Positions 29,447-61,855 of a stretch of 64,000 nucleotides of DNA are shown in pieces. The notes under the pieces were generated by a model. It ran no database searches and was not told where the DNA came from. It was given only the letters and a program-made list of their open reading frames with translations. The stretch spans positions 960,001 through 1,024,000 of the forward strand of contig AL929603.2 of assembly GCA_000002445.1 (NCBI GenBank). The letters run 5' to 3'. The position numbers and the translations under genes were made by a program. Source of the stretch: Trypanosoma brucei (lineage: Eukaryota). Position 1 is the first letter of the stretch. Every line of letters begins with the position of its first letter.

Positions 29447-29640
29447 TTGCCGAACTTGAAAATAAACTAAAAAAATTGTTAACTCAGAGTCCGATAGTGC
29501 GTAGGTATTTCAAGGAGAATGGAAGGAAACGCAAGGGAAGTGTCGATGACGATGATGTTATAGATGAAGAAGGATTTACAATGAGGAAGCAACATACCCT
29601 AATGGGTTTAATGGCTTTTGCAGCAGTTTTGGTTATGTAA
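29447..29640 (+). pseudogene. 3' fragment (about 63 codons) of a family-C surface protein gene
   Basis: About 95% nucleotide identity to the 3' ends of 33544..34662 and 59645..60739, through the stop. It encodes ...KENGRKRKGSVDDDDVIDEEGFTMRKQHTLMGLMAFAAVLVM. Homology begins abruptly at about 29447. The same 130-nt spacer and family-A gene follow. Confidence 0.85.
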
Positions 29641-29770
29641 TTCAATGTTATATTTTATGCTACGGTTCTGTTATTGGTATTGTGCGTTTGTGATACCCAC
29701 TGCTTTTTTGTGTAATGGAGGGGATGTGTTTTTCCTCTTTTATATCTTTTGCCACATGTGATTGTAGGTA

Positions 29771-30757
29771 ATGAAAGTTACGATAGCGGAATTGGTTGTT
29801 TTGTTATTTTCTGTAATTTGTATTGATGGGAAGGAGGACAATGGGTGTACGTTGATAACAGATTATCACGGTGATGCACCTTTAAGTGAGTCCGTATGTT
29901 ATCTCAGTTGTCTTTCGAATGCATTAAATAAATTGTACAGCGAGGGAGAGAGGAGGCTGTTTGTGAATGAGGAAGTGTATGCAAATGCATTTCGTATATT
30001 GGATGATATGGAAGGAAGAGCAGGTGAAAGTGTTAGATATTTGAGTATTATTAGTGTTGCGATGGTAAAGGAAAATAATAGGTTGGAAAAGCTTATATCT
30101 CATGGAAATGCAATGGGAGACCTTGTAGCTAAGGCTGGTGGATTATTTGCTGAGGTTAATGAAAGTGTGAGGGCAGTGAGGAAAGAAATACCTGGTGCCC
30201 TTATAAAAGTGAATAAATATTATACGGCTATTGCTGAGATCACAAGGACTGTGTGGGATGATGTTAAAGCTGTGGAAAGTGGAAAGCACGAATGTAAAGA
30301 TCAAGAGTTTAGAGGTGTTAAAGAGTTTGACGTTACATGTGGAGATAACGCATGTCTGCTGGCACATGGTGTGAGTGAGGGCGCCCTCAAACATTATAAG
30401 AATGGGCTTCTTGAAATAAACGTGATGACAAAGTCCGGTGGGGTGAGCAAATGCCTCAACTTACCACGCAATAACCTGTATAAGAGTGGTGCGGTAAACA
30501 ATTCAAACAAAGTACTGGATTGGCGTGATGATGCTGACACTGTCACTCACTTTCTACTCAAACTGAAAATACGGGACATCTTTAGCACCCTCATCGCACC
30601 TTTTGCTGCTGGACAACCACCTTCTGCACTCTTGGACATGATGGCCAATATCACTTCACTTTACTCCCGTTTCAATGAAGTCCACAGGAGTTTCACTTCG
30701 TTGCTGTTCGACACGAATAGCATTGATAATGTGAAAAGCACTAATTCTACCATCTGA
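29771..30757 (+). CDS. Family A secreted/surface protein, copy A1 (328 aa; signal peptide, no C-terminal hydrophobic tail)
   Basis: N-terminal signal peptide MKVTIAELVVLLFSVICIDG. Cys-containing N-domain. Three paralogs plus one fragment lie in the window. It may be ESAG-like (see findings), identity unconfirmed. Confidence 0.8.
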   Translation: MKVTIAELVVLLFSVICIDGKEDNGCTLITDYHGDAPLSESVCYLSCLSNALNKLYSEGERRLFVNEEVYANAFRILDDMEGRAGESVRYLSIISVAMVKENNRLEKLISHGNAMGDLVAKAGGLFAEVNESVRAVRKEIPGALIKVNKYYTAIAEITRTVWDDVKAVESGKHECKDQEFRGVKEFDVTCGDNACLLAHGVSEGALKHYKNGLLEINVMTKSGGVSKCLNLPRNNLYKSGAVNNSNKVLDWRDDADTVTHFLLKLKIRDIFSTLIAPFAAGQPPSALLDMMANITSLYSRFNEVHRSFTSLLFDTNSIDNVKSTNSTI

Positions 30758-32003
30758 CAGATATTTTCAGATATTTTCCCTCGTTCTATAATAAAAATAA
30801 CTTTACGCGTGCGTGCTCTCATCCTTTTCAACTGATAATTTCTTTATCTGGAGTGTCCCTGTCTTGGTTATCTTAATTGTGAGTGTTAGTGACTGTGGTT
30901 GTCGCTCCACCATTTGTGTTGTAGGGTAGTGGGGTGTGTTAATTCTTTCTGCATGTGAAGTAAGGAAGAAATATTTGGTTTTGTGCTCACAAGAGTAGTT
31001 TTGTTGCCATTTATTTTTGGTTATGCAAAGAACCTGCGTGCAATGAAGATAAATGAGAATTCATTGAAAGGATGAGCGGTTACGTATGTAATATCCGTTT
31101 TTTTCTACCAGAGTGTCTCTAAGGATGGTGACTGGTGGGTGTGGCAAATGATCTAAATGGAGGTAATAACAGGGAGGGTCACTCGTTATTTTGGAACTGT
31201 TCTATTTTTTGGTGTGTTGGTGGCTAACATAATATCCCATCATGTCACCACATAATCAGCGGTTTCAGTAATGAGCATAATTGTTTGAGACGGTGTTTTG
31301 AGAATGCAACTTTTATCTTTATCATTTTGTGGCTTAAGAAAATGGAAGGGAGGAGGTTGTGCATGTTCACAAAGAGAGGAGCAAAGGCTGTTGTCAATAC
31401 CTGTATGAAAGGAGGAGGATGTGCTAAATGAGGCTCAGTAGCAAAGTTGTGTGCATTGGATAAGGGTAAGACATACATGCAAATTAAGCGCGTAATCTAT
31501 TAGAGAGTAAAGGCATAAAGTAACAACTGAAAGTAATGGGGTCAGAGGAGGGTATGGAAAAACATAGCATGAATGTGCAAGTACTCATTATGGTAGTGGA
31601 AGTGTTCATCTGGAGAGTAGATGAGCTCATTGAGAAACTCAAGAAATCGGTAGCACAACTAAGTTGGGAAAGTGTAATTACCTGGCATGGAGAGTAAGGA
31701 AGTGAATATGTTGGATGAAGAAATTAGGAGAAATGGTGTAACGAAAAGGAGAATACCGCAGTTGTGAGGAAGTCTAACGTTGATATCTAACTTCAGGCAA
31801 GGGAATTCATGTAACTGCGTGTTTCCGACGTGTGTTACGTTGTGTTGGGTGCTGCTGTAATTGGTTTGTGTCAGGCACTTTCAAGATCCGATATTTGGTT
31901 GTATATGTCTGTTGAGTGTGTCTGCCAATATCAGTAATGACTGTAATTATAAGCTTTTGTTTTTTCCTCCTTTTCGGCGGATGAATGTATAGGCAAAATT
32001 ACA

Positions 32004-59644: not shown

Positions 59645-60739
59645 ATGAAGGTGGTATCACTTTTTCTTGCAGCGTGTCTGGTAATATTGGGTGCTGCCAG
59701 TAAGGCAGTGACGGAGCAGCCTTCCGGTAAGGCCATGACACTCAAGGGAGCTGAAACATTATGCAATCTCAGTCATGCCTTGAGGGTTGTGGGTGCTAAG
59801 ACTCAGGACAAACAAAAGAATGCGACAGAAATGGTGGATAAGTTTCGGGAGTGGAGACATCAGCATGGTGTAAAGGGGAGGACATGGAAGGCAATAGTGC
59901 AGGGTTTGGAGAAGATAGGTGTTGTTAATGAAAGTTACATGGAAGGTATAAAGAAAACATATGCGAAAATGGAAAAGATAATGAACAATACAGACAAGGC
60001 TCTGCAGGTAATGGATACTAGTTTTTTAAACATTGTAAGAGTTTCCTATCATGTTGTGAATGCATCACTGTCAATAGGACAAGTATTGAGGGATCTGGTA
60101 GTATTGTTTGAGCAAACAAAGGGAAGTGAAAATAGTTGGTGCTGTTTGGTAAAAACTGCCTCTTCAGGAAATGGATGTGGAAGTGATGGTAAACGCGAGT
60201 TGGCTAGCGCTCCAGAAGAGTGTAATATGTCTGTTACAAAGGATATGTCAGATGATGGTGTGTTGACTACGCTAAATAATTATAAAACCGATCAACCGGT
60301 TGAATTAACGGACAATAACAGCGCTAAGTGCTGGATCATGGGTACGGAAGAGGTTGCAAATGGAGGAGCTGGATCTTTTATAGTGGGAACTACTGGAGGT
60401 TTCGTTACCTATAGCCAAGGTTCTGCCGTTATCATGAAATCTAGTGACATGGTGCTCAAACTCATCAGCAATTACACTTCAATCAGAGACGGGTATGAAA
60501 GTATTACACAACAGTACCGTGATGTAGAGCCAACTCTTACTTCCTTTGCCGAACTTGAAAATAAACTAAAAAAATTGTTAACTCAGAGTCCGATGGTGCG
60601 TAGGTATTTCAAGGAGAATGGAAGGAAACGCAAGGGAACTGTCGGTGACGATGATGTTATAGATGAAGAAGGATTCACAATGAGGAAGCAACATACCCTA
60701 ATGGGTTTAATGGCTTTTGCAGCAGTTTTGGTTATGTGA
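59645..60739 (+). CDS. Family C putative GPI-anchored surface protein, copy C2 (364 aa)
   Basis: Paralog of 33544..34662. Shorter (GS)n linker. One divergent patch. Confidence 0.8.
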   Translation: MKVVSLFLAACLVILGAASKAVTEQPSGKAMTLKGAETLCNLSHALRVVGAKTQDKQKNATEMVDKFREWRHQHGVKGRTWKAIVQGLEKIGVVNESYMEGIKKTYAKMEKIMNNTDKALQVMDTSFLNIVRVSYHVVNASLSIGQVLRDLVVLFEQTKGSENSWCCLVKTASSGNGCGSDGKRELASAPEECNMSVTKDMSDDGVLTTLNNYKTDQPVELTDNNSAKCWIMGTEEVANGGAGSFIVGTTGGFVTYSQGSAVIMKSSDMVLKLISNYTSIRDGYESITQQYRDVEPTLTSFAELENKLKKLLTQSPMVRRYFKENGRKRKGTVGDDDVIDEEGFTMRKQHTLMGLMAFAAVLVM

Positions 60740-60871
60740 TTCAATGTTATATTTTATATGCTACGGTTCTGTTATTGGTATTGTGCGTTTGTGATACCCA
60801 CTGCTTTTTTGTGTAATGGAGGACATGTGTTTTTCCTCTTTTATATCTTTCGCCACATGTGATTGTAGGTA

Positions 60872-61855
60872 ATGAAAGTTACGATAGCGGAATTGGTTGT
60901 TTTGTTATTTTCTGTAATTTGTATTGATGGGAAGGAGGAGAATGGGTGCACGTTGATAACAGATTATCACGGTGACGCACCTTTAAGTGAGTCCGTATGT
61001 TATCTCAGTTGTCTTTCAGATGCATTAAATAAATTATACGCTGATGGAGAGAACAAACTGTTTGTGAATGAGGAAGTGTATGCAAATGCATTTCGTATAT
61101 TGGATGATATGGAAGGAAGAACAGGTGAAAGTGTTAGATATTTGAGTATTATTAGCGGTGTAATGGAAGGGAAACATGATAAATTGAAAAAGCTTATATC
61201 GTATGGAAATGCAATGGGGGACCTTGTAGCTAAGGCAGGTGGATTATTTGCTGAGGTTAATGAAAGTGTGAGGGCAGTGAGGAAAGAAATACCTGGTGCC
61301 CTTATAAAAGTGAATAAATATTATACGGCTATTGCTGTGATCACAAGGACTGTGTGGGATGATGTTGAGGCATTGGAGCGTGACAGTGATCCGAACTGCC
61401 ATGGCGAAAAAATTAAAAATGTTGGTGAGTTCCAAGTTACGTGTGGCGAACATTTCTGCCCACTAAAAGAAGGTGTTAACGAAAGTACTCTTCAGAAATA
61501 TAAGGATGGATGCCTTGAAATAAATGTTCAAGATAAGTCTGGCCAAATAAGTGAATGCCTTAACTTACCAAGGAATAGTTTGTACAAAAATGGCGCAGTA
61601 AAGTATTCAAGTGACGGAACGAATTGGTATGGAAACGGTAATACTTATTTTCAACTCAAACTCCACGTTCATAGTATGCTTTCCCCTCTCACAATTCCCC
61701 TTGGTGCTGGCCAACCACCTTCTGCACCCCTAGACATGATGGCTAGTATTACTTCCCTGTACTCTCGCTTCAACGAGATACACAAAAACTTTACTTCATT
61801 GCTACTTAACACCAATTTTACTGGAATTGTGAATAGTAGTAATTCCGATTTTTAA
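60872..61855 (+). CDS. Family A secreted/surface protein, copy A3 (327 aa), most divergent paralog
   Basis: Same signal peptide and first ~50 aa as A1 and A2. Conserved central block (AGGLFAEVNESVRAVRKEIPGALIKVNKYYTAIA). Otherwise about 55-60% identity. Confidence 0.8.
   Translation: MKVTIAELVVLLFSVICIDGKEENGCTLITDYHGDAPLSESVCYLSCLSDALNKLYADGENKLFVNEEVYANAFRILDDMEGRTGESVRYLSIISGVMEGKHDKLKKLISYGNAMGDLVAKAGGLFAEVNESVRAVRKEIPGALIKVNKYYTAIAVITRTVWDDVEALERDSDPNCHGEKIKNVGEFQVTCGEHFCPLKEGVNESTLQKYKDGCLEINVQDKSGQISECLNLPRNSLYKNGAVKYSSDGTNWYGNGNTYFQLKLHVHSMLSPLTIPLGAGQPPSAPLDMMASITSLYSRFNEIHKNFTSLLLNTNFTGIVNSSNSDF

What the first reader, a model, noticed from the sequence alone, without database searches (positions are those of the whole stretch)
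29447..61855. Tandem ~5-kb cassette of three surface-protein gene families (B-C-A) present in two separated copy sets, with truncated fragments marking the junctions
Seen directly. Three unrelated signal-peptide protein families occur in fixed order and spacing on the + strand.
- A: about 325 aa, secreted-type.
- B: about 455 aa, GPI-type tail.
- C: about 370 aa, GPI-type tail.

The order is Cfrag-A1-spacer-B1-C1-A2 at 29.4-35.8 kb and Afrag-spacer-B2-C2-A3 at 56.7-61.9 kb. A-to-A periodicity is about 5022 nt. The fragments at 29447..29640 and 56690..56862 end exactly where cassette homology starts. This suggests the two sets are remnants of one longer tandem array, later interrupted by about 21 kb containing a gene-poor tract, an LRR protein gene and two other surface genes. 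Arrays like this are typical of antigenically relevant, recombining surface gene families in African trypanosomes. The identity of the three families is not obvious to me from sequence alone.
Basis: seen in the sequence. Interest (0 to 1): 0.8.

Follow-up and report, generated by a model that had tools for sequence, protein, structure and literature searches.

The report
Known chromosome-internal ESAG2–ESAG11–ESAG1 cassettes
The repeated 5-kb cassette is real, but it is two already-annotated, chromosome-internal copies of the ESAG2–ESAG11–ESAG1 gene cluster on Trypanosoma brucei chromosome 1, which keep being reshuffled by homologous recombination and gene conversion.

Summary
A 5,022-nt unit (ESAG1–spacer–ESAG2–ESAG11) occurs as 1.26 units at 29,444–35,771 and 1.03 units at 56,683–61,859. 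Each set starts with a 5'-truncated gene fragment.

The window is T. brucei brucei TREU927 chromosome 1. All ten proteins looked up match deposited proteins exactly:
- A = ESAG1 (Pfam E = 1e-116).
- B = ESAG2 (VSG_B domain).
- C = ESAG11 (81% identical to the ESAG11 protein Q9Y021).

The gene order equals the distal part of telomeric VSG expression sites. Both sets are already published as bloodstream-form up-regulated clusters (Tb927.1.4880–4900 and Tb927.1.5100–5120), so the finding is already known.

The idea of one array split by a 21-kb insertion is not supported. The inner junctions overlap in phase by about 180 nt. Both sets end at the same point just past the ESAG1 stop. A third partial cassette lies on another chromosome in T. 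b. gambiense.

- T. b. equiperdum lacks exactly one unit at set 1.
- Divergence between sets is block-wise. Intergenic DNA is 95–98% identical, while blocks inside the genes differ by 27–48%.
- The block types are swapped between sets, strains and chromosomes (permutation p < 2e-4). This is mosaic gene conversion, not positive selection (dN/dS about 0.3–0.45).

The parts
29444..29640 (+). 5'-truncated ESAG11 fragment: last 65 codons plus stop. It is the left edge of set 1. Its first ~70 nt are C2-like and the rest is C1-like.
   Evidence: tblastn (29443-29637, 94% to C1/C2 residues 308-372); alignment; also present in T. b. equiperdum
29771..30757 (+). ESAG1 copy A1 (CAJ16693; Tb927.1.4870 inferred from numbering only). 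It is a mosaic: the 5' part up to 30428 is 99.4% identical to A2, and the 3' end is of a different type, closest to the set-2 fragment.
   Evidence: Pfam PF03238 E=1.2e-116; exact match; identity profiles
30758..32003 (+). Spacer 1 (1,246 nt) with no conserved credible ORF, 95.5% identical to spacer 2. It probably carries the ESAG1 3'UTR and ESAG2 5' processing signals. By gene order it holds the annotated 'hypothetical protein, unlikely' Tb927.1.4880 (inference).
   Evidence: PMC2837033
32004..33368 (+). ESAG2 copy B1 (CAJ16695, Tb927.1.4890): signal peptide, VSG_B domain, hydrophobic GPI-type tail.
   Evidence: Pfam PF13206 E=1.1e-27; exact match; gene ID from PMC2837033 and PMC3584999
33544..34662 (+). 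ESAG11 copy C1 (CAJ16696, Tb927.1.4900): signal peptide and hydrophobic GPI-type tail.
   Evidence: exact match; 81% identical over full length to Q9Y021 'ESAG11 protein'; sub-threshold ISG65-75 hit
34793..35767 (+). ESAG1 copy A2 (CAJ16697, Tb927.1.4910). Cassette homology ends about 4 nt after its stop.
   Evidence: gene ID from PMC11095692
34466..35450 (+). Right-hand copy of the ~1-kb direct repeat (ESAG11 3' end + intergenic + ESAG1 5' two-thirds). Its partner is 29444-30428. There are 6 differences in 972 nt, with a sharp edge at 30429/35451. This is the substrate for gain or loss of one unit.
   Evidence: single hybrid copy in T. b. equiperdum
35772..56682 (+). The 20.9-kb interval between the sets. 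It holds an 8.5-kb ORF-poor tract (35772-44300), a 271-aa hypothetical gene (44308-45123), LRRP (47804-50011, CAJ16709), a VSG-related gene (53265-54302, CAJ16712, Tb927.1.5060) and ESAG9 (55395-56174, CAJ16714). It contains no ESAG1/2/11 relics.
   Evidence: collinear in T. b. equiperdum
56683..56862 (+). 5'-truncated ESAG1 fragment: last 59 codons plus stop. It is the left edge of set 2, A2-like at its start and then A1-like.
   Evidence: tblastn; alignment
56863..58091 (+). Spacer 2.
58092..59468 (+). ESAG2 copy B2 (CAJ16716, Tb927.1.5100).
59645..60739 (+). ESAG11 copy C2 (CAJ16717, Tb927.1.5110).
60872..61855 (+). ESAG1 copy A3 (CAJ16718, Tb927.1.5120). Its 3' half is highly diverged from A1 and A2 (dS saturated). 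Homology ends about 4 nt after the stop.

Best explanation
These are two chromosome-internal copies ('GRESAG'-type) of the ESAG2-ESAG11-ESAG1 gene cassette of Trypanosoma brucei brucei TREU927 chromosome 1. Set 1 is about Tb927.1.4870-4910 and set 2 is Tb927.1.5100-5120. They lie in a + strand polycistron just downstream of housekeeping genes.

The gene order and orientation match the telomere-proximal end of bloodstream VSG expression sites (...ESAG8-ESAG3-ESAG2-ESAG11-ESAG1). An LRRP (the family ESAG8 derives from) and a VR+ESAG9 pair lie upstream, and VR+ESAG9 is the pair that replaces ESAG2-11-1 in BES11.

Published data show:
- The mRNAs are strongly up-regulated in bloodstream forms.
- ESAG1 has a signal peptide but is not found at the surface.

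How the structure arises and changes (shown here by comparison, mechanism inferred):
(1) The cassette is a segment of a periodic unit (ESAG1-spacer-ESAG2-ESAG11, 5,022 nt). Copies of it have been placed at several sites, each truncated at its 5' edge.
(2) At set 1, two ~1-kb direct repeats that are 99.4% identical allow one whole unit to be gained or lost. The route is homologous recombination, either unequal crossover or circle pop-out and integration.
(3) Short-tract gene conversion between the two sets, and with dispersed paralogues on other chromosomes, keeps intergenic/UTR DNA and conserved coding parts homogeneous. The same process shuffles a small number of deeply diverged alternative blocks within ESAG2, ESAG11 and the ESAG1 3' half, producing mosaic genes.
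For: Identity:
- All ten proteins looked up, including the seven cassette proteins, match deposited TREU927 chromosome 1 proteins exactly, on a 1,064,672-bp contig.
- ESAG1 Pfam E=1.2e-116 with full profile coverage, and VSG_B in B.
- C1 is 81% identical to Q9Y021 ESAG11.
- All 43 ESAG1 homologues are from the T. brucei clade.

Order and published biology:
- BES order and the BES11 VR+ESAG9 replacement: PMC2567434.
- Bloodstream up-regulation: ESAG2 634x and 271x, ESAG11 22x and 2.8x, ESAG1 (Tb927.1.5120) 38x: PMC2837033.
- Localisation: PMC4587319.
- Tb927.1.4890 and .4900 proteins identified in the patient-IgG antigen selection: PMC3584999.
- Recombination among non-ES copies (PHI p<0.0001): PMC3605285.

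Unit gain or loss:
- T. b. equiperdum chromosome 1 has a single [ESAG11 fragment-ESAG1].
- That copy aligns to both 19815-30705 and 34466-45769.
- It has the A1 left flank and the A2 3' end and right flank.

Mosaicism:
- Intergenic DNA is 95.5-97.7% identical between sets.
- Coding sequence is 77-93% identical, dS 0.14-0.63 (saturated in the ESAG1 3' half), dN/dS 0.30-0.45.
- Differences cluster in blocks of 27-48 per 100 nt next to 0-5 per 100 nt.

Three-way site patterns:
- eq-set2 = 927-set1 in 31881-32190 (60 sites vs 2), 32581-32880 (50 vs 4) and 33971-34275 (35 vs 12).
- eq-set2 = 927-set2 in 35271-35771 (182 vs 6).
- The conserved background is dominated by 927 set1 = set2.
- Maximum runs are 48 and 49 with 214 switches, against permuted maxima of 11 and 18 and a minimum of 404 switches in 5,000 shuffles.

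Dispersed paralogues:
- An ESAG2 on another chromosome in T. b. gambiense carries the B2-type blocks at 0-3 differences per 100 nt.
- The nearest ESAG1 relative changes along the protein.
Against: - The direction of the set-1 unit polymorphism is unresolved: deletion in equiperdum or duplication in 927.
- The single copy in the equiperdum assembly could be a collapsed repeat. It has exactly the hybrid structure a collapse would give.
- That assembly also shows truncated ORF calls in set 2, so some differences may be sequencing errors. Substitution-only patterns and near-identical block matches argue this does not create the mosaic signal.
- Jackson et al. report that ES and non-ES copies of ESAG1 and ESAG2 are reciprocally monophyletic. 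The shared gene order with the BES therefore does not demonstrate ongoing exchange with expression sites.
- Transcription, RNA processing and protein function were not tested here.
Confidence: 0.85

Rival explanations
1. One reading: the two sets are the two halves of one longer tandem array that was split by a later insertion of about 21 kb.
For: - Both sets begin with a truncated gene of the preceding unit, so each derives from something longer than one unit.
- The sets lie on the same strand in the same orientation, 21 kb apart.
Against: - The inner junctions do not abut in unit phase. Set 1 ends at ESAG1 stop +4 and set 2 starts about 180 nt before the ESAG1 stop.
- Both sets have the same right end, followed by unrelated DNA.
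- The interval has no cassette relics.
- It contains conserved single-copy genes, with LRRP only 0.95% diverged between strains, and it is collinear in T. b. equiperdum.
- A further partial cassette exists on another chromosome. Dispersal of cassette segments therefore occurs anyway.
Confidence: 0.1
2. The highly diverged blocks inside the genes result from positive diversifying selection on point mutations in situ, not from exchange of pre-existing sequence blocks.
For: - Coding regions are more diverged than intergenic DNA.
- ESAG2 and ESAG11 are host-exposed surface proteins recognised by patient IgG.
Against: - dN/dS is 0.2-0.5 even within the diverged quarters, and dS is very high or saturated there.
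- The same block variants recur almost identically (0-5 differences per 100 nt) in the other set of another strain and in a paralogue on another chromosome. Independent point mutation cannot produce that.
Confidence: 0.05
3. The repeat, or part of it, is an assembly artefact in the reference sequence.
For: The A1 and A2 5' blocks are 99.4% identical over about 1 kb.
Against: - The sets differ by 5-23%.
- A1 and A2 have different 3' thirds and different flanks.
- Set 2 and the interval are reproduced in an independent assembly.
- Distinct transcripts and proteins from both sets are reported.
Confidence: 0.02

Closest known systems
ESAG2-ESAG11-ESAG1 cluster of telomeric bloodstream VSG expression sites (BES) of T. 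brucei (Hertz-Fowler et al. 2008, PMC2567434)
   Same: It has the same three gene families in the same order and orientation. They are tightly packed, polymorphic and recombining. An LRR-protein gene (the family ESAG8 derives from) lies upstream. A VR+ESAG9 pair like the one that replaces the cluster in BES11 sits immediately upstream of set 2.
   Different: - The window locus is chromosome-internal or core-proximal, downstream of housekeeping genes.
- It is not followed by 70-bp repeats or a VSG; no tandem repeats were found.
- ESAG11 is intact here, whereas it is usually a pseudogene in BESs.
- An ESAG1-to-ESAG2 spacer joins units into a periodic array.
- Non-ES ESAG1 and ESAG2 copies form clades separate from the ES copies (PMC3605285).
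Other chromosome-internal ESAG2/ESAG11 clusters, e.g. Tb11.01.6210-6250 on chromosome 11 (Veitch et al. 2010, PMC2837033) and the ESAG11-related/VR array on chromosome 4 (Jensen et al. 2009, PMC2771046)
   Same: They are internal, T. brucei-specific, non-syntenic clusters containing ESAG2 and ESAG11. They are strongly up-regulated in bloodstream forms. The same paper lists the two chromosome 1 sets as clusters 3 and 4.
   Different: [quoted passage not shown] The chromosome 1 sets include ESAG1 and show the periodic 5,022-nt unit.
Partial cassette on T. b. gambiense DAL972 FN554966.1 (locus L005)
   Same: It has the same circular order, ESAG11 3' part-ESAG1-spacer-ESAG2. It is 82-89% identical to the window cassettes and shares the B2-type hypervariable blocks.
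   Different: It is on a different chromosome and next to other VSG_B genes. Its ESAG11/ESAG1 portion is much more diverged (about 71%).

Membership tests
ESAG1 (Pfam PF03238) | Full-length match to the ESAG1 profile above the curated cut-off | tested here: met
   A1 scores 388.5 bits (cut-off 27), E=1.2e-116, profile positions 1-227 of 227. A1, A2 and A3 are exact matches to proteins deposited as ESAG1.
ESAG1 (Pfam PF03238) | Restricted to the T. brucei clade; N-terminal signal sequence; no C-terminal hydrophobic anchor | tested here: met
   All 43 homologues come from T. brucei subspecies or T. equiperdum. The sequences show a hydrophobic N-terminus and a hydrophilic C-terminus. No dedicated signal-peptide predictor was available.
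ESAG2 (b-type-VSG-derived, Fam1 lineage) | VSG_B N-terminal domain (PF13206) above the cut-off | tested here: met
   B1 scores 97.6 bits (cut-off 25), E=1.1e-27.
ESAG2 (b-type-VSG-derived, Fam1 lineage) | About 450 aa with signal peptide and GPI-type hydrophobic tail; named ESAG2 in reference annotation | tested here: met
   B1 is 454 aa and B2 is 458 aa, each with a hydrophobic C-terminus. Both are exact matches to CAJ16695 and CAJ16716, 'ESAG2'. Direct phylogeny against BES ESAG2 was not run here. Jackson 2013 reports that non-ES copies form a separate clade.
ESAG11 | Full-length homology to the ESAG11 protein described from an expression site | tested here: met
   C1 is 81% identical over 100% of its length to Q9Y021 'ESAG11 protein [T. 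brucei]', E=1e-191. C1 and C2 are exact matches to CAJ16696 and CAJ16717.
ESAG11 | Remote relationship to invariant surface glycoproteins (ISG65/75) | tested here: inconclusive
   The PF11727 hit has E=0.0022 and 17.7 bits, below the 25.1-bit cut-off. This is consistent with, but does not prove, the ISG relationship proposed in PMC3605285.
Bloodstream VSG expression site (BES) | Telomeric location, ES promoter, 70-bp repeats and a VSG downstream of ESAG1 | tested here: not met
   No tandem or 70-bp repeats were found anywhere in 28-64 kb. No VSG-like ORF or Pfam hit follows A2 or A3. Housekeeping genes lie directly upstream. The locus shares the BES gene order but is not an expression site.

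The most novel reading that the evidence does not exclude
This chromosome 1 locus may be a surviving chromosome-internal 'proto-expression-site' module. Its layout is LRRP ... VR-ESAG9-[ESAG2-ESAG11-ESAG1]. The distal segment of bloodstream expression sites, including the unusual VR+ESAG9 version in BES11, would then have been recruited from it or from a sibling copy. The deeply diverged, interchangeable blocks in ESAG2, ESAG11 and ESAG1 may be maintained as a small library of alternative epitope segments, shuffled among internal copies. That would amount to low-level segmental antigenic diversification of nominally 'invariant' surface proteins.
Probability: 0.2. Interest if true: 0.45.

Novelty: already known. 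Interest (0 to 1): 0.15.

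Why it matters
The locus itself is ordinary for T. brucei. The genes are annotated and their families are characterised. Their bloodstream-specific expression and the general occurrence of recombination among non-expression-site ESAG copies are published.

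The value of this check is mainly that it closes the finding:
- It names the three families.
- It corrects the 'interrupted array' history.
- It documents a clean local example of how these cassettes evolve: gain or loss of one whole unit, and block-wise gene conversion between sets, strains and chromosomes.

That example could be useful to anyone designing locus-specific probes, knock-outs or diagnostics based on Tb927.1.4890 and Tb927.1.4900, because the paralogues share long identical stretches and swap variable blocks.

Tried and rejected
They were replaced by tblastn of the window's own proteins, which found no relics, and by Pfam scans of the ten longest ORFs, which gave no hits.
- Rfam at gathering threshold over the whole window gave no match.
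- Tandem Repeats Finder found only A/T-rich low-complexity arrays upstream of 28.3 kb and no 70-bp-type repeats near the cassettes.
- Exact-product lookups for A3 and C2 found no record, so the chromosome position of the window and the sequence beyond 64 kb in TREU927 could not be fetched.
- The chromosome I paper (Hall et al. 2003) is not held.
- The first dN/dS script timed out and was rerun.
- P0024 was expected to be the equiperdum counterpart of A3. It turned out to be a different ESAG1 about 30 kb further on.
- P0008 was expected to give T. b. gambiense chromosome 1. It lies on another chromosome instead, so a third genome for the set-1 copy-number question was not obtained.
- Positive selection was considered as the cause of the coding-region divergence and rejected (dN/dS 0.3-0.45; block sharing among paralogues).
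- A 26-kb tandem duplication was considered and rejected, because the DNA after 35771 and after 61859 is unrelated.

Full report
**1. The observation**

The repeat is real and far beyond chance.
- A self-BLAST of the window gives 30588-35771 vs 56693-61859 at 89.3% over 5,218 nt.
- It also gives 29444-30726 vs 34466-35736 at 92.9%, and 29444-30747 vs 60543-61845 at 83.3%.
- The repeat finder shows start-to-start spacing of 5,022 nt and about 26,100 nt.

- A: 29771-30757, 34793-35767 and 60872-61855.
- B: 32004-33368 and 58092-59468.
- C: 33544-34662 and 59645-60739.

Both junction fragments exist.
- 29443-29637 encodes the last 65 residues of C.
- 56683-56859 encodes the last 59 residues of A.

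Set 1 is therefore 1.26 units and set 2 is 1.03 units of a 5,022-nt period (ESAG1-spacer-ESAG2-ESAG11). They are separated by 20.9 kb.

**2. What it is**

An exact-sequence look-up shows that every protein queried is a deposited protein of Trypanosoma brucei brucei TREU927 on a 1,064,672-bp contig, which is chromosome 1:
- A1, A2, A3 = CAJ16693, CAJ16697, CAJ16718, named ESAG1.
- B1, B2 = CAJ16695, CAJ16716, named ESAG2.
- C1, C2 = CAJ16696, CAJ16717, named ESAG11.
- The interval holds an LRRP (CAJ16709), a VSG-related gene (CAJ16712) and an ESAG9 (CAJ16714).

Independent tests agree with these names:
- A matches Pfam ESAG1 over the full profile (E = 1.2e-116).
- B carries a VSG_B domain (E = 1.1e-27).
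- C has only a sub-threshold ISG65-75 hit, but it is 81% identical over its full length to Q9Y021, 'ESAG11 protein'.
- ESAG1 and ESAG11 homologues were found only in the T. brucei clade.

**3. What is already published**

- In telomeric bloodstream expression sites the conserved order is ESAG7-6-5-3-4-8-3-2-11-1. In BES11 the ESAG2-11-1 cluster is replaced by a VR gene plus ESAG9 (PMC2567434). The window cassette has the same 2-11-1 order. A VR+ESAG9 pair sits directly upstream of set 2 and an LRRP lies further upstream.
- Veitch et al. list Tb927.1.4880-4900 and Tb927.1.5100-5120 as bloodstream-form up-regulated clusters 3 and 4. The fold changes are ESAG2 634x and 271x, ESAG11 22x and 2.8x, and ESAG1 38x (PMC2837033).
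- The gene IDs are corroborated by PMC3584999 and PMC11095692.
- Tagged ESAG2 localises to the cell-body membrane. An internal ESAG11 copy localises to the cell body and flagellum. ESAG1 is not at the surface (PMC4587319).
- Jackson et al. count 21, 18 and 12 non-ES copies of ESAG1, ESAG2 and ESAG11, and find significant recombination among them (PMC3605285).

The finding is therefore already known at the level of genes, families, expression and general evolutionary mode.

**4. Testing the 'interrupted array' history**

- Set 1 ends about 4 nt after the A2 stop (35771).
- Set 2 ends at the equivalent point after A3 (61859).
- The DNA beyond these points is unrelated, both to each other and to the spacer.
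- Set 2 starts at the unit position about 180 nt upstream of the ESAG1 stop. The inner junctions therefore overlap in phase. A simple insertion would make them abut.
- The interval contains no cassette relics.
- The interval is collinear in T. b. equiperdum, with LRRP only 0.95% diverged.
- A third partial cassette in the same circular order (ESAG11 3' part-ESAG1-spacer-ESAG2) lies on a different chromosome in T. b. gambiense.

Each set is thus best read as a separately placed, 5'-truncated segment of a periodic template. The two sets are not the halves of one split array. A more complex rearrangement cannot be strictly excluded.

**5. How the locus changes: gain or loss of a unit**

- A1 and A2 differ at only 6 of 972 positions between 29457 and 30428, with a sharp edge at 30429. 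Beyond that edge their 3' thirds are 53-82% identical.
- In T. b. equiperdum chromosome 1 (CM010672.1) a single [ESAG11 fragment-ESAG1] sits between the lipase-like gene and the 271-aa gene.
- That locus aligns both to 19815-30705 and to 34466-45769.
- The single copy has A1's left flank and A2's 3' end and right flank. Exactly one 5,022-nt unit is absent.
- This is the product, or the substrate, of homologous recombination between the ~1-kb direct repeats.
- The equiperdum copy differs from both 927 repeats at about 41 sites. The 927 repeats are therefore either recently duplicated or homogenised.
- An assembly collapse in equiperdum would look the same and is not excluded.

**6. How the locus changes: mosaic gene conversion**

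- Between the two 927 sets, intergenic DNA is 95.5-97.7% identical.
- Coding sequence is only 77-93% identical, with dS of 0.14-0.63 (saturated in the ESAG1 3' half) and dN/dS of 0.30-0.45.
- Differences are concentrated in blocks of 27-48 per 100 nt that lie beside stretches with 0-5 per 100 nt.

In a three-way comparison with the syntenic T. b. equiperdum set 2:
- The blocks at 31881-32190, 32581-32880 and 33971-34275 carry the 927 set-1 type (60 vs 2, 50 vs 4 and 35 vs 12 informative sites).
- The block at 35271-35771 carries the set-2 type (182 vs 6).
- The conserved background is dominated by sites where the two 927 paralogues agree against equiperdum.

Further support:
- Run lengths of 48 and 49 and 214 pattern switches were observed. 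In 5,000 shuffles the maxima were 11 and 18 and the minimum number of switches was 404.
- The ESAG2 on another chromosome in T. b. gambiense carries the B2-type blocks at 0-3 differences per 100 nt.
- The nearest ESAG1 relative changes along the protein.

Together these results show exchange of pre-existing sequence blocks among paralogues. They do not fit in-situ positive selection.

**7. Verdict**

The feature is an already known, annotated locus, and interest is low. The most novel reading still open is that this internal module reflects the ancestry of the distal expression-site segment and maintains a small library of interchangeable variable blocks. I rate that as unlikely to be shown, and of moderate interest if it were.

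Noticed in passing
window 53265-54302 (VR gene, CAJ16712); L004 15469-16503: The VSG-related gene is 13.8% diverged (substitutions only) from its syntenic T. b. equiperdum copy. The neighbouring LRRP is 0.95% diverged and housekeeping genes 1.1%. The VR gene therefore also appears hypervariable or converted at a fixed locus.
   Followed up: partly
L002 2375-4907 and 9991-10955 (T. b. equiperdum CM010672.1, about 30 kb beyond the window's equivalent): There is a second VR/ESAG9-like stretch, 67.6% identical to window 53252-55896. About 5 kb later comes another ESAG1, 71% identical to A3. This suggests an older, larger VR-ESAG9-...-ESAG1 module is repeated along the chromosome arm.
   Followed up: partly
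window 35772-44300: This 8.5-kb tract has no credible ORF, Pfam hit, Rfam hit or tandem repeat. Its GC skew is negative at 36-42 kb even though all genes in the window are on the + strand. It is conserved in T. b. equiperdum at about 97%. Its nature is unknown.
   Followed up: partly
L003 7428-7802, 10001-10654 and about 12500-13500 (T. b. equiperdum set 2): In the equiperdum assembly ESAG9 is called as 124 aa, ESAG2 as 217 aa, and ESAG1 is not called at all, although the DNA is collinear. These are either real pseudogenes or indel errors of that assembly.
   Followed up: no
L006 1-808 vs 809-8378 (T. equiperdum OVI contig CZPT02001497.1): The contig starts at the equivalent of window 29455, about 10 nt inside the cassette's left edge (29444). 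It shares the ESAG11 fragment plus the ESAG1 5' two-thirds at 98%. It then has a different ESAG1 3' third and unrelated downstream DNA. This is another recombinant context for the same conserved block.
   Followed up: no
window 1-2000 and 27630-28250: These are very AT-rich stretches (GC 0.29 at 1-2000) with A-rich and TTA low-complexity repeats. They are probably intergenic or boundary regions and are not part of the cassette.
   Followed up: no
window 33369-33543 and 34663-34792: The ESAG2-ESAG11 and ESAG11-ESAG1 intergenic regions are only 175 and 130 nt long and are 97.7% identical between the sets. That is more conserved than the flanking coding DNA. They must hold both the 3'UTR and the trans-splicing signals in very little space.
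   Followed up: no
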